This document shows, in pieces, positions 12,883-19,942 of a stretch of 32,000 nucleotides of DNA; position 1 is the first letter of the stretch; each line of letters begins with the position of its first letter. The DNA is from Candidatus Baldrarchaeota archaeon (GTDB lineage Archaea; Asgardarchaeota; Baldrarchaeia; Baldrarchaeales; DXJG01). A program made the position numbers and the translations under genes. The notes beneath the pieces were generated by a model, which did no database searches, was not told where the DNA came from, and saw only the letters and a list, made by a program, of their open reading frames with translations. Where the stretch lies: NCBI GenBank assembly GCA_019056805.1, contig DXJG01000001.1, forward strand, positions 30,001 to 62,000. Direction: 5' to 3'.

Positions 12883-14315
12883 TTATTTTTTAAGACTACA
12901 GTATTCTCGAATATTAATGTACTCGTAGGCATCGGTTAGACTATCGAAACAGTAGTGAACTTTTTGGAAGGCTTTTCTAAATTCGACAACATCTTTAGCA
13001 ACATCTTTGGGATTCTCTTCATTAAATACGATTCTTTTAATAAATTCTGCTATTTCCTCCATGTCGGATTCTTTCATTCCTAATCTAGTAACTTCACTAA
13101 CTCCTAGACGAATACCTCCAGGTCGTTTATAATCTCTTCCAACTCTTTTGTCCCATGGAAGCAAATTCCGATTAATTATAATGTTGGCTTCCTCTAATTT
13201 TTTCTCAACTGTCATACCGTCCTTCAGCGGTGTTTCACTAATGTCTACGAGAATCGTATGTGATTCCGTAAATCCTTTATGTTCAGCGAGAACCTTAAAC
13301 CCTCTTTCGTACAAGGCTTGGCCTAAGGCTTTAGCGTTTTTAATGATTTGACCGGCATACTCGCTACCAAAAGCAAGCATCTCTGCAAAGGCTACAGCTT
13401 TTGGTAGCAGCAGAATTATCTGCTGCTATTCCCAGCAACTAGGTGCAAATGATGATTGCTCATGGTAGACGGGAAAGCTGCTTTTTTGAGTTCCTCAGCA
13501 TATTTGCTATGCGAGAGGACCGTTCCTCCTTGTGGTCCTGGCAATGTTTTGTGTGTACTTATCGTGAAAACGTCCGCCCCTTCTCTTAAGGGGTCTTGGA
13601 ATTTTCCACCGGCAATAAGTCCTGCAACGTGTGCTCCATCGAAGTGTATATATGCACCGATTTCATCTGCAATTTCTCTAATTTCTTTTACTGGTTCTGG
13701 AAATAGAAATACGCTGGCTCCCATTATGAATAATTTTATATGTTTTCCTTCCTTTGCGAGTTTTTTAACTCGTTTTGCTGTTCCATCTACATCGATGTTC
13801 ATTTCTTTCTCGTCAAAGGCAAAATAGTGTACTTTTAAGCCCCTGACTTTCCCCGCCGTGCCCCAGAGTTTTTTCTTTGCATAGCTTATGTGGCCGCCCG
13901 AGGGAATTGAAATACTCATTATATGATCTCCAGGTTCGGTAAAAGCTGAATATACTATTAAATTTGCAATCACTCCGCTTATGGCGCGGACATCAGCAAA
14001 TTCTGCTTTAAATAATTTTTTAGCTAACTCAATAGCTATTTCTTCTACTTGATCTATATAGATACATCCAGCATAAACGCGTTCGCCGGGCCAACCTTAC
14101 CGGTCCCAGTTTAACTGGGACTTTCGGCGTATCTGTTTCCGAAATCGCTGCATAAACATTCTCGAACTGCTGGACTTGGAATGTTTTTCCGACCCAGCCT
14201 TCTATGCTGGGTTTTCGGAAGCTATTAGTGGAATTGTGCTTCGGAACCACTGATGATGTTCTTTTAATAGTTCAAATATTTTATCGTAGTATTTCTTTGC
14301 TTCTTGTTCTTCCAT
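12883..14315 (-). CDS. glyA: Serine hydroxymethyltransferase; 4 exons (14315-14214, 14185-14123, 14096-13429, 13399-12883), 449 aa after splicing
   Basis: LIASEN, RYAEGWPG, GGHIS, DGAHVAGL, STHKTLPGPQGG, SNHHLH, GIRLG. 1433 nt minus 83 nt of introns = 1350 nt. SD GGAGGG upstream of ATG 14315. Confidence 0.93.
13400..13428 (-). other. Relaxed BHB intron 3 of glyA (29 nt)
   Basis: 9-bp stem AGCAGCAGA/TCTGCTGCT, helix TGGG/ACCA with one G.A mismatch; excision gives GGG AA|A GCT (AGKA). Confidence 0.8.
14097..14122 (-). other. BHB intron 2 of glyA (26 nt)
   Basis: Helix GCCG/CGGU, bulges AAA/AAG, 7-bp stem GTCCCAG/CTGGGAC; excision gives GCC GAA|GGT TGG (YAEGW). Confidence 0.9.
14186..14213 (-). 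other. BHB intron 1 of glyA (28 nt)
   Basis: Helix TCCG/CGGA, bulges AAA/AAA, 7-bp stem ACCCAGC/GCTGGGT; excision gives TCC GAA|AAC ATT (SENI). Confidence 0.9.
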
Positions 14316-14725
14316 TTCTTTCCCTCCTGGTATAATTATGTTAAAATTATTTCTTGAACTTATCAATATGTTTGTTTTAGCGGTAGTTAAATTCTTGGTC
14401 CCGTGGTTTATATAAGCTATCCTTTGCTATTTTTAAAGGGAAACTCATTTGTATATGCCTCTTTCTCTCTACGTATTTGTTCAATTATAAATTTAAGTAA
14501 TGAAGCAATTTGTAGGCCTTTTTGTGGATATTATTAGGTGATTGGTTTTGTGGTTAGGTCGATTTACAAAACTTAAGATGATTCTGGTATAGTTTCTTTC
14601 TCTCTTTATGTTACAATCTTAGTTTATGCGTGTACAAAGAACCCTGCTTGTTGTGTTAAAAGAAAGATTAATATTTTGAATTAATTTAATAATTTTGACA
14701 ATTTAAGTATTTGAGGTGTAATTTA

Positions 14726-19331: not shown

Positions 19332-19942
19332 ATGAAGGAGAAAGGAAAAATAATAGAAATACGAAGTCATGGTCGAGGTGGACAAGGTGTGGTTATTTTT
19401 TCTGAACTCTTGGCAAAAGCTGCATATTTAGATGGCTATATGGCGCAGTCGTTCCCATTTTTCGGCGCAGAAAAGGCAGTTCTTCTCTGAAAGGACTGCC
19501 TCTGCAGAGGCGTGGAGCCCCCTTAATGGCTTTCACACGAATTAGTGATAAAGAGATTTTGTTAAGAAGCCAAGTTTATAATCCTGATATCGTTGTTGTT
19601 TTGGACCCAGTTATCTTAGAGCTAGTAAATGTCACTGATGGATTAAAAGCTGATGGATGGTTGATTGCAAACACTCCAAAGAAACCAGAAGAACTTGGTT
19701 TAAACGGGTCTTTTAAAATCGCAACCGTTGATGCTACCGGCATTGCATTGGAATTAAATCTAAAAGTTGCAGGTTTCGCTGTAGTCAACACACCGATGTT
19801 AGGAGCGTTTTCCAAGGCTACGAAATTAGTGTCACTTGAATCGGTCAAAAGAGTTATTTTAGAGGAATGGAAAGGTGAACTAGCGGAGCTAAATGCCAAA
19901 GCAGCTGAGCTAGCCTTCGAAAAAACTATTGTAAAAGTTTAG
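19332..19942 (+). CDS. porG: 2-oxoacid (pyruvate-type):ferredoxin oxidoreductase gamma subunit; 2 exons (19332-19472, 19508-19942), 191 aa spliced
   Basis: HGRGGQG, FGAE|RRGAP, NTPMLGA. 611 nt minus 35 nt = 576 nt. Confidence 0.92.
19473..19507 (+). other. Canonical BHB intron of porG (35 nt)
   Basis: Helix GCAG/CTGC, bulges AAA/AGA, 11-bp stem; excision gives GCA GAA|AGG CGT (AERR). Confidence 0.92.

What the first reader, a model, noticed from the sequence alone, without database searches (positions are those of the whole stretch)
14186..14213. glyA intron 1: 28-nt canonical BHB inside the ASEN motif
Minus-strand RNA: GCU-UCCG-AA^A-ACCCAGC-AUAGAAG-GCUGGGU-CGGA-AA^A-AC. The 4-bp helix and 7-bp stem are perfect. 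Splicing gives A-S-E-N-I-P-S-P-A-V-R, the conserved SHMT N-terminal motif. Unspliced, translation stops at TAG after 37 codons.
Basis: seen in the sequence. Interest (0 to 1): 0.85.

Follow-up and report, generated by a model that had tools for sequence, protein, structure and literature searches.

The report
tRNA-type mini-intron inside archaeal glyA
The serine hydroxymethyltransferase gene of this Asgard (Baldrarchaeia) archaeon is interrupted by a conserved 28-base hairpin shaped like a tRNA intron (one of three in the gene), so its messenger RNA very probably has to be cut and rejoined by the tRNA-splicing enzymes before a working enzyme can be made, which is known for only two other archaeal mRNAs.

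Summary
On the minus strand, 14186-14213 is a 28-nt insert in glyA, with a perfect 4-bp helix (UCCG/CGGA), an AAA bulge and a perfect 7-bp stem. Removing it and two similar inserts (14097-14122, 26 nt; 13400-13428, 29 nt) gives a clean 449-codon SHMT. That protein aligns without gaps to uninterrupted orthologues.

Six diverged lineages of the same genus keep all three inserts at the same sites:
- Exons have no indels, and dN/dS is 0.01-0.03 with dS up to about 1.9.
- Helices are conserved far above neutral sites.
- Loops vary and carry 1-nt indels.
- The stems of introns 2 and 3 show compensatory pair changes.

Independent DNA contigs carry the inserts. The genome encodes a two-subunit EndA and RtcB.

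The best reading is a BHB intron of class HBh' (there is no outer exon helix), spliced at the RNA level. No RNA data exist, and a slipped register would cut out of frame.

This scan had already noted the same phenomenon on other DNA of this genome (pyrG, fbp, pcm, infB). My own scan independently recovered seven such genes. The papers I could search describe only cbf5 and HVO_1309 as endonuclease-spliced archaeal mRNAs.

The parts
14214..14315 (-). glyA exon 1 (ATG 14315-14313; 34 codons, ends ...I-A-S-E). A GGAGG Shine-Dalgarno-like site lies at 14323-14327.
   Evidence: sequence read directly
14216..14219 (-). 5' strand of the 4-bp central helix (UCCG). It is exonic: the Ser codon UCC plus the G of the Glu codon.
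   Evidence: invariant in six lineages
14213..14215 (-). 5' bulge AAA. The predicted cut is between 14214 and 14213.
14186..14213 (-). Intron 1, 28 nt. It comprises the third nucleotide of the 5' bulge (14213), stem ACCCAGC (14206-14212), loop AUAGAAG (14199-14205), stem GCUGGGU (14192-14198), helix strand CGGA (14188-14191) and the first two nucleotides of the 3' AAA (14186-14187).
14185..14187 (-). 3' AAA, a 'bulge' not closed by an exon helix. The predicted cut is between 14186 and 14185.
14123..14185 (-). glyA exon 2 (21 codons, N-I-P-S-P-A-V-R-E...R-Y-A-E)
14097..14122 (-). Intron 2, 26 nt (helix GCCG/CGGU, bulges AAA and AAG, 8-bp stem). Its removal joins ...RYAE to GWPGE...
13429..14096 (-). 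glyA exon 3 (222 codons plus 2 nt). It matches Pfam SHMT at E = 7.8e-41.
13400..13428 (-). Intron 3, 29 nt (helix UGGG/ACCA with one G.A mismatch, bulges AAU and AAA, 9-bp stem). Its removal gives ...VAGKAVAF...
12883..13399 (-). glyA exon 4 including the stop codon. It matches Pfam SHMT at E = 1.1e-19.

Best explanation
Window 14186-14213 (minus strand) is a 28-nt archaeal bulge-helix-bulge-type intron of class HBh'. It sits in the pre-mRNA of glyA (serine hydroxymethyltransferase) of a Baldrarchaeia (Asgard) archaeon, and is the first of three such micro-introns in the gene.

Proposed mechanism: the transcript folds so that the exon bases UCCG pair with the intron bases CGGA. A 3-nt AAA lies on each strand, and a 7-bp intron hairpin stacks on the helix. 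The heterotetrameric (alpha-beta)2 splicing endonuclease cuts after the second A of each AAA, and RtcB joins the exons. The junction GAA|AAC restores the motif A-S-E-N-I-P-S-P-A-V-R. Without splicing, only a 37-residue peptide can be made.

Shown here: the structure, its exact fit to the frame and to the orthologues, its conservation pattern, selection on the spliced frame, and the presence of the enzymes. Inferred: that cleavage and ligation actually happen, and at these positions.
For: (1) Removing 14186-14213, 14097-14122 and 13400-13428 turns four out-of-frame pieces into one 449-codon ORF. That ORF is 55-73% identical over its full length to uninterrupted SHMTs and has no gap at any junction.

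(2) All three inserts have the same build: a 4-bp helix between four exon nucleotides and intron nucleotides, 3-nt bulges and an intron hairpin. This matches the published definition (bioRxiv 10.64898/2026.10.13.758758 section 4.8; PMC5829648).

(3) Six distinct lineages keep all three inserts in place: own, G001, G003 and metagenome contigs L215/L222, L209 and L201. Their glyA DNA, introns included, is 81-98% identical. The spliced CDS has no exon indels, dN/dS is 0.012-0.032 and dS reaches about 1.9.

(4) In intron 1, 20 of 21 non-loop intronic positions are invariant, against 36 of 142 four-fold sites (Fisher p = 6e-10). The loop keeps only 3 of 7 positions and has a 1-nt deletion in L215/L222. 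The one stem change is A-U to G.U.

(5) The sister introns show compensatory changes. Intron 2 pair 2 is U-A, U.G or C-G, and intron 3 pair 9 is A-U or C-G. Intron 2 is 26 or 27 nt long.

(6) Contigs of independent runs and studies carry the inserts unchanged, and none shows an intron-less joint.

(7) The genome has two EndA paralogues of 184 and 178 aa, each with both Pfam EndA domains, and an RtcB. Asgard archaea are reported to have the broad-specificity (alpha-beta)2 type (PMC5829648).

(8) Of the 10 motifs of this quality in the genome, 7 lie in conserved genes and restore frame and motif: glyA, a porG-like gene, pyrG, aIF5B, rpoN, pcm and fbp.

(9) glyA of other archaea carries BHB introns of unrelated sequence. 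A Bathyarchaeia MAG has one at exactly the intron-2 site. Another Bathyarchaeia MAG and three Asgard genomes of another family have one inside the Glu60 codon.
Against: No RNA evidence was available.

The outer exon helix h is missing (at most 1 bp), so the 3' cut site is not in a closed bulge.

The run of A's allows a slipped register, which is the MFE and 1.1 kcal/mol more stable. It would excise 26 nt and shift the frame.

Intron 1 itself shows no double-sided compensatory change. Its helices simply never vary, which also fits sequence-level constraint.

The genome has a second, uninterrupted SHMT paralogue with 39% identity, so this copy is not necessarily the only source of the activity.

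The six lineages are close kin, so they are not independent.
Confidence: 0.86

Rival explanations
1. Translational bypass (hopping), as in T4 gene 60 or the 'byp' elements of yeast mitochondria. The ribosome takes off at a codon before the hairpin and lands on a matching triplet after it, so the mRNA is never spliced.
For: These are short GC-rich hairpins in an AT-rich genome (35% GC), with an in-frame stop soon after the take-off region. For intron 1, an AAC take-off codon (Asn35) and an AAC landing triplet just before AUU would give the right protein (sequence).
Against: No matching take-off and landing triplets exist for intron 2 (GAA against UAA before GGU) or intron 3 (GGG or AAU against CCA or AAA), although all three share the same build. 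The conserved feature is the 4-bp exon-intron helix with 3-nt bulges, which bypassing does not need. The same build occurs in heavily interrupted tRNA genes of related Asgard lineages (PMC11291895).
Confidence: 0.04
2. glyA is a decaying pseudogene that picked up hairpin insertions, and the uninterrupted SHMT paralogue on another contig does the work.
For: Unspliced, the gene is broken by stops and frameshifts. A second SHMT-family gene is intact.
Against: dN/dS is 0.012-0.032 over dS up to about 1.9, with no exon indel and no stop in eight spliced sequences. The only indels lie inside the inserts. The inserts are single copy in the genome.
Confidence: 0.02
3. The endonuclease cuts the mRNA at these sites without productive ligation, as in tRNA-endonuclease-initiated decay in yeast. 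The elements would then be degradation switches rather than introns.
For: Endonuclease-initiated mRNA decay exists in yeast (PMC10485636). Three sites in one mRNA would make an efficient off-switch.
Against: The unspliced frame cannot encode SHMT, yet the spliced frame is strongly selected. A joined product must therefore be made. RtcB is present.
Confidence: 0.03
4. The insert is removed at the RNA level by some other, unknown activity, or in the slipped register with later correction, rather than by EndA/RtcB at the proposed positions.
For: There is no outer helix, and the MFE register differs from the in-frame one.
Against: The geometry fits the EndA ruler in all three introns and in six other genes. 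In relatives the first two 3'-bulge nucleotides of intron 3 vary (AA or AG), while the third always completes a Lys codon (AAA or AAG) under the canonical cut.
Confidence: 0.05

Closest known systems
cbf5 pre-mRNA intron of Crenarchaeota (Aeropyrum, Sulfolobus; Watanabe 2002, Yoshinari 2006, Yokobori 2009 = PMC2738675)
   Same: It is a short BHB-type intron inside a protein-coding sequence, often with a relaxed motif. It occurs in organisms with a hetero-oligomeric splicing endonuclease, and splicing is needed to restore the reading frame.
   Different: The gene differs (glyA, not cbf5) and so does the phylum (Asgard/Baldrarchaeia). There are three introns in one gene rather than one, and it is one of several interrupted housekeeping genes in the genome. 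There is no experimental proof here.
HVO_1309 mRNA of Haloferax volcanii (PMC7714728; PMC10485636)
   Same: It is an mRNA substrate of the archaeal splicing endonuclease with BHB sites.
   Different: That intron lies in the 5' UTR and is cut by a homodimeric alpha2 enzyme. The glyA introns interrupt the coding sequence itself.
Non-canonical tRNA introns of Asgard archaea (Atabeyarchaeia, Freyarchaeia, Jordiarchaeia; PMC11291895; bioRxiv 10.64898/2026.10.13.758758)
   Same: They have the same motif classes (hBHBh', HBh'), the same size range and the same presumed enzymes, and occur in lineages with many introns per gene. ARAGORN calls introns in 22 of 31 tRNA genes here, which is a rough figure.
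   Different: The host RNA is a messenger, so the exonic half of the motif must also encode conserved amino acids (Ser-Glu-Asn of the ASEN motif).
IRE1/RtcB splicing of XBP1/HAC1 mRNA in eukaryotes (my own knowledge; PMC13149111 mentions it)
   Same: It is spliceosome-independent excision of a 26-nt (XBP1) intron from an mRNA by a protein endonuclease plus RtcB-type ligation, and it changes the reading frame.
   Different: The endonuclease (IRE1) and the recognition motif (twin stem-loops) differ. It is a regulated stress switch, and no regulation is shown here.

Membership tests
Archaeal BHB intron (Marck & Grosjean classes hBHBh' / HBh' / hBH) | [quoted passage not shown] | tested here: met
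   UCCG (14216-14219) pairs with CGGA (14188-14191), all Watson-Crick, and is invariant in six lineages.
Archaeal BHB intron (Marck & Grosjean classes hBHBh' / HBh' / hBH) | Two 3-nt bulges on opposite strands that carry the cut sites | tested here: inconclusive
   The 5' AAA bulge is closed on both sides. The 3' AAA follows the helix but is not closed by an exon helix. A slipped register is also possible.
Archaeal BHB intron (Marck & Grosjean classes hBHBh' / HBh' / hBH) | A flanking helix of at least 2 bp: intron helix h' and/or exon helix h | tested here: met
   h' is a perfect 7-bp stem. h is absent (1 possible U-A pair), so the class is HBh' and not the full hBHBh'.
Archaeal BHB intron (Marck & Grosjean classes hBHBh' / HBh' / hBH) | Cutting after the 2nd nucleotide of each bulge yields the functional mature RNA | tested here: met
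   The 28-nt excision restores the frame and the ASENIPSPAVRE motif, with no gap against 13 intact orthologues. The same rule works for introns 2 and 3 and in all relatives.
Archaeal BHB intron (Marck & Grosjean classes hBHBh' / HBh' / hBH) | A splicing endonuclease able to cut relaxed motifs, plus an RNA ligase, encoded by the host | tested here: met
   There are two EndA paralogues. The 184-aa one carries the Tyr/His/Lys pattern. The 178-aa one appears, by eye, to lack the His; neither residue pattern was checked against an alignment. Both match PF01974 and PF02778. RtcB matches at E = 3.7e-183. The specificity of the enzyme itself was not tested.
Archaeal BHB intron (Marck & Grosjean classes hBHBh' / HBh' / hBH) | Excision and exon ligation seen in RNA | not testable with these tools
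   No RNA run holding this sequence was listed.
Translational bypass elements (T4 gene 60, mitochondrial byps) | A matching take-off codon and landing triplet flanking the bypassed segment | tested here: not met
   A match is possible for intron 1 only (AAC...AAC). It is absent for introns 2 and 3, which have the same architecture.
Self-splicing group I / group II introns | A ribozyme core of hundreds of nucleotides, recognisable by Rfam models | tested here: not met
   The insert is 28 nt, and Rfam gave no hit in the window.

The most novel reading that the evidence does not exclude
Asgard archaea of this genus run an obligatory, genome-wide layer of endonuclease/RtcB-dependent mRNA splicing. 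At least seven housekeeping genes are affected, with up to three micro-introns per gene. glyA has gained BHB introns repeatedly, even at the very same codon boundary, in Asgard and in Bathyarchaeia. On this reading, protein genes of the closest prokaryotic relatives of eukaryotes can be multi-intron genes, and their expression depends on, and might be tuned by, the tRNA-splicing machinery.
Probability: 0.55. Interest if true: 0.88.

Novelty: new member of a known kind. Interest (0 to 1): 0.78.

Why it matters
In the papers I could search, only two archaeal mRNAs are described as splicing-endonuclease substrates: cbf5 (coding region, Crenarchaeota) and HVO_1309 (5' UTR, Haloferax) (PMC7714728, PMC10485636). 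A central-metabolism gene with three such introns, in an Asgard archaeon, extends protein-enzyme mRNA splicing to a new phylum. It also shows that a prokaryotic protein gene can carry several introns.

There are practical consequences. Gene callers split or truncate these genes: glyA appears here as four ORF fragments. Metabolic reconstructions of such MAGs will therefore wrongly score them as missing or as pseudogenes.

The finding also gives a clean test case for several questions:
- how BHB introns are gained, since the same glyA site is occupied by unrelated introns in different phyla;
- how coding constraints and RNA-structure constraints coexist in the exonic half of the motif;
- whether splicing is used for regulation.

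Tried and rejected
RNA evidence: two searches for public runs were made. No RNA holder was listed, so nothing can be said on expression.

DNA runs: contigs were laid to exclude an assembly artefact. No joint and no difference was found.

Rfam on the whole window gave no family, and ARAGORN found no tRNA in the window.

My first genome-wide scanner timed out. The loose versions gave mostly chance hits.

The 'mirrored genome' control for structural counts turned out to be uninformative. A Watson-Crick BHB on one strand is its own mirror on the other strand. Real and mirrored counts are therefore nearly equal (5389 against 5334; 11 against 10), and I do not use them. The frame-restoring counts on the reversed genome (41 against 6) are only a rough guide.

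The second was too loose: 119 loci, of which only 6 are glyA.

Considered and rejected:
- Mobile repeat family: the introns are single copy.
- Target-site duplication: the flanking similarity is only the A-rich bulges.
- Split gene translated in pieces: exons 1 and 2 are 34 and 21 codons, and exon 2 has no start signal.
- Programmed DNA elimination: there are no intron-less DNA joints.

No structure prediction or complex prediction was needed.

Full report
WHAT IS THERE. On the minus strand of the window a serine hydroxymethyltransferase gene (glyA) starts at ATG 14315, seven bases after a GGAGG, and ends at a stop at 12883-12885. As raw sequence it falls into four out-of-frame ORF pieces. The two large pieces match Pfam SHMT (PF00464) at E = 7.8e-41 (profile 51-283) and E = 1.1e-19 (profile 299-399). 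The breaks are three short inserts: 14186-14213 (28 nt, the finding), 14097-14122 (26 nt) and 13400-13428 (29 nt). Deleting exactly these gives a 1350-nt ORF of 449 codons.

THE OBSERVATION. The elements are:
- exon UCCG (14216-14219), pairing with intron CGGA (14188-14191);
- AAA (14213-14215);
- a perfect 7-bp stem, ACCCAGC/GCUGGGU, around the loop AUAGAAG;
- a second AAA (14185-14187).

Unspliced translation reads 37 codons and stops at TAG. Cutting after the second A of each AAA removes 28 nt and joins GAA|AAC, giving ...LIASENIPSPAVRE....

In a protein alignment with 13 uninterrupted orthologues and the genome's own SHMT paralogue, the orthologues show no gap or extra residue at this junction or at the intron-2 junction; the paralogue has a 3-residue deletion just after the latter. 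The boundaries predicted from RNA geometry are therefore the boundaries that homology demands.

The hairpin region folds at -17.8 kcal/mol, with z = -4.0 and 0 of 200 shuffles as good. Motifs of this quality are defined as a 4 Watson-Crick-bp helix with at least 3 G-C pairs, a stem of at least 7 bp, and length 24-60 nt. They occur only 10 times in the 1.92-Mb genome, or 0.0029 per kb of strand. One at the exact frame-restoring place in a 1.4-kb gene is not chance.

TWO CORRECTIONS TO 'CANONICAL'. First, there is no outer exon-exon helix. Only one U-A pair could form beyond the 3' AAA. By the Marck-Grosjean classes, as restated in bioRxiv 10.64898/2026.10.13.758758 (section 4.8), this is HBh' and not hBHBh'. 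Relaxed forms of this kind are reported to be cut only by (alpha-beta)2 and epsilon2 endonucleases (PMC5829648).

Second, the run of A's allows the hairpin's last U to pair one step further out. That slipped register is the MFE (-17.8 against -16.7 kcal/mol). It would place the bulges so that 26 nt are removed, which is out of frame. Only experiment can say how the enzyme chooses.

WHO IT IS. The genome (18 contigs, 1.92 Mb, about 35% GC, 91% complete) belongs to a genus whose other members are deposited as 'Candidatus Baldrarchaeota archaeon Yap30.bin4.67' and 'Candidatus Odinarchaeota archaeon AUK032'. It is therefore an Asgard archaeon of the Baldrarchaeia. DNA holders are subsurface, marine and hydrothermal metagenomes.

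COMPARATIVE EVIDENCE. Two same-genus genomes (G001, G003) and four further metagenome contigs (L215, L222, L209, L201) carry the same glyA with all three inserts at the same positions. That makes six distinct lineages, whose glyA DNA (introns included) is 81-98% identical.
- After removing the inserts, every full-length sequence is a clean 449-codon ORF with no exon indel.
- Pairwise dN/dS is 0.012-0.032, while dS reaches about 1.9. The spliced frame has thus been under strong purifying selection for as long as synonymous sites needed to saturate. This excludes a pseudogene.
- Only 36 of 142 four-fold degenerate sites are invariant across the six lineages, but 20 of 21 non-loop intronic positions of intron 1 are (Fisher p = 6e-10). 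The loop keeps 3 of 7 positions and has lost one base in L215/L222.
- An indel in the middle of a 'coding' region that is harmless, next to helices that never change, is the signature of a structured RNA that is removed.
- Intron 1 shows only a one-sided change (A-U to G.U in G003). Its sisters give the double-sided ones: intron 2 pair 2 is U-A, U.G (L209) or C-G (L201), and intron 3 pair 9 is A-U (own) or C-G (all others). Intron 2 is 26 or 27 nt long.
- In intron 3 the first two 3'-bulge bases vary (AA or AG). The third always completes a Lys codon (AAA or AAG) when the cut is placed after the second bulge base.

NOT AN ARTEFACT, NOT A REPEAT. Contigs of other runs carry the inserts letter for letter, with no joint that skips them. 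These are X2 from a second sample, X4 from another study covering introns 1 and 2, and X6 from another study covering intron 3. The intron sequences are single copy in the genome.

THE MACHINERY. The genome encodes two EndA-family proteins. The 184-aa one has the Tyr...His...Lys pattern of a catalytic alpha subunit. The 178-aa one seems, by eye, to lack the His and fits a structural beta subunit; I did not check either reading against an alignment. Both have the N- and C-terminal Pfam EndA domains. An RtcB ligase is also encoded (E = 3.7e-183). This fits the (alpha-beta)2 type reported for Asgard archaea (PMC5829648; the 2026 preprint, section 2.6).

IT IS ONE OF A SYSTEM. Of the 10 intron-1-grade motifs in the genome, 7 sit in conserved genes and restore frame and a recognisable motif when cut by the same rule:
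- glyA;
- a porG-like gene (window 19473-19507, FFGAE|RRGAP);
- pyrG (KIDP|YLNVDPGT);
- aIF5B (EAGGI|TQHIGA);
- rpoN/Rpo10 (MIIPVR|CFTCGK);
- pcm (QTISAPH|MVA);
- fbp.

The family names are my reading of the motifs and were not scanned, except for glyA. Earlier notes of this scan had already flagged pyrG, fbp, pcm, infB, atpD and the glyA/porG set in this genome. My scan recovered most of them independently.

One of the 10 motifs lies in frame inside the intact SHMT paralogue, where excision would break the frame. This shows that the motif alone is not proof.

glyA ELSEWHERE. Most orthologues are uninterrupted at all three sites. These come from other Asgard families, Nitrososphaeria, Bathyarchaeia and Hadarchaeia. 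Intron 1 was found only in this genus among the genomes searched. There are other glyA introns, however:
- One Bathyarchaeia MAG (L120:1469-1500) has a 32-nt BHB intron of unrelated sequence at exactly the intron-2 boundary (Glu55|Gly56). Its exon half of the helix is GCGG and its intron half CCGC. Here the halves are GCCG and CGGU, so the Ala codon's third base covaries with the intron.
- Another Bathyarchaeia MAG (L066:833-864) has 32 nt inside the Glu60 codon, with helix CUGG/CCAG.
- Three Asgard genomes of another family (L030, L032, L029) have 38-41 nt at that same Glu60 position, with the same helix. Two of these genomes are single 2.8-Mb contigs and may be Atabeyarchaeia. That is an inference from genome size only.

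Either these sites are hot spots for gain, or introns travelled with the gene.

RIVALS.
- Translational bypass could give the right protein for intron 1 (AAC take-off and landing). It has no matching triplets for introns 2 and 3 and does not explain the conserved 4-bp exon-intron helix.
- The pseudogene reading is excluded by selection.
- Cleavage without ligation cannot produce the selected protein.
- An unknown excision activity cannot be excluded, but the geometry fits EndA in every case.

WHAT IS KNOWN. In the library searched, BHB introns in mRNAs are described for cbf5 of Crenarchaeota (PMC2738675) and the 5' UTR of HVO_1309 in Haloferax (PMC7714728). [quoted passage not shown] Heavy tRNA interruption in Asgard archaea is published (PMC11291895; the 2026 preprint), but neither paper mentions mRNA introns. 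No paper combined Baldrarchaeota with introns.

I therefore file the finding as a new member of a known kind. The mechanism is as for cbf5. The gene and phylum are new, and three introns in one gene is unprecedented in the papers I could search.

VERDICT. Confidence is about 0.86 that this is an EndA/RtcB-spliced mRNA intron. The missing piece is RNA or biochemical proof, including which cutting register is used.

Noticed in passing
window 19473-19507 (+): A 35-nt BHB insert (helix GCAG/CUGC, bulges AAA and AGA, 9-10-bp GC-rich stem) lies in a porG-like gene (pyruvate:ferredoxin oxidoreductase gamma). Cutting by the same rule joins ...FFGAE to RRGAPLMAF... and restores the frame.
   Followed up: partly
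G000 C9:421951-423012 (L002:1501-2634): There is a second, uninterrupted SHMT-family paralogue, 39% identical to the spliced glyA and lacking the GWPG motif. It contains an intron-grade BHB-like motif at C9:422542-422594 that is in-frame coding sequence. Excision there would break the frame, so this is a likely chance hit and a warning against motif-only calls.
   Followed up: partly
L120:1469-1500; L066:833-864; L030:1467-1504; L032:1473-1513; L029:2514-2554 (-): glyA of two Bathyarchaeia MAGs and of three Asgard genomes from another family carries BHB introns of unrelated sequence. One is at exactly the intron-2 site of this window. The other four are inside the Glu60 codon, five codons downstream.
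   Followed up: partly
G000 C9:155012-155043 (-), C10:39163-39195 (+), C10:32511-32551 (+), C17:48225-48255 (+), C17:208921-208969 (+): High-grade BHB micro-introns of 31-49 nt restore frame and conserved motifs in pyrG, aIF5B, rpoN/Rpo10, pcm and fbp. The gene names come from the motifs I recognised and were not scanned against Pfam.
   Followed up: partly
window 14341-14370 (-): A block upstream of the glyA start (ACATATTGATAAGTTCAAGAAATAATTTTAA) is almost unchanged in the same-genus genomes, while flanking intergenic DNA is not alignable. It is likely the promoter (A/T-rich box) or a regulatory site.
   Followed up: no
whole genome G000: ARAGORN calls only 31 tRNA genes, 22 of them with an intron, and several calls are implausible (tRNA-Stop, odd anticodons). 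This suggests many tRNA genes with multiple or non-canonical introns that the program cannot resolve.
   Followed up: no
L054:2474-2493: A Nitrososphaerota long-read MAG shows a frameshift near residue 385 of its glyA with no hairpin insert. This is probably a sequencing error rather than an intron.
   Followed up: no
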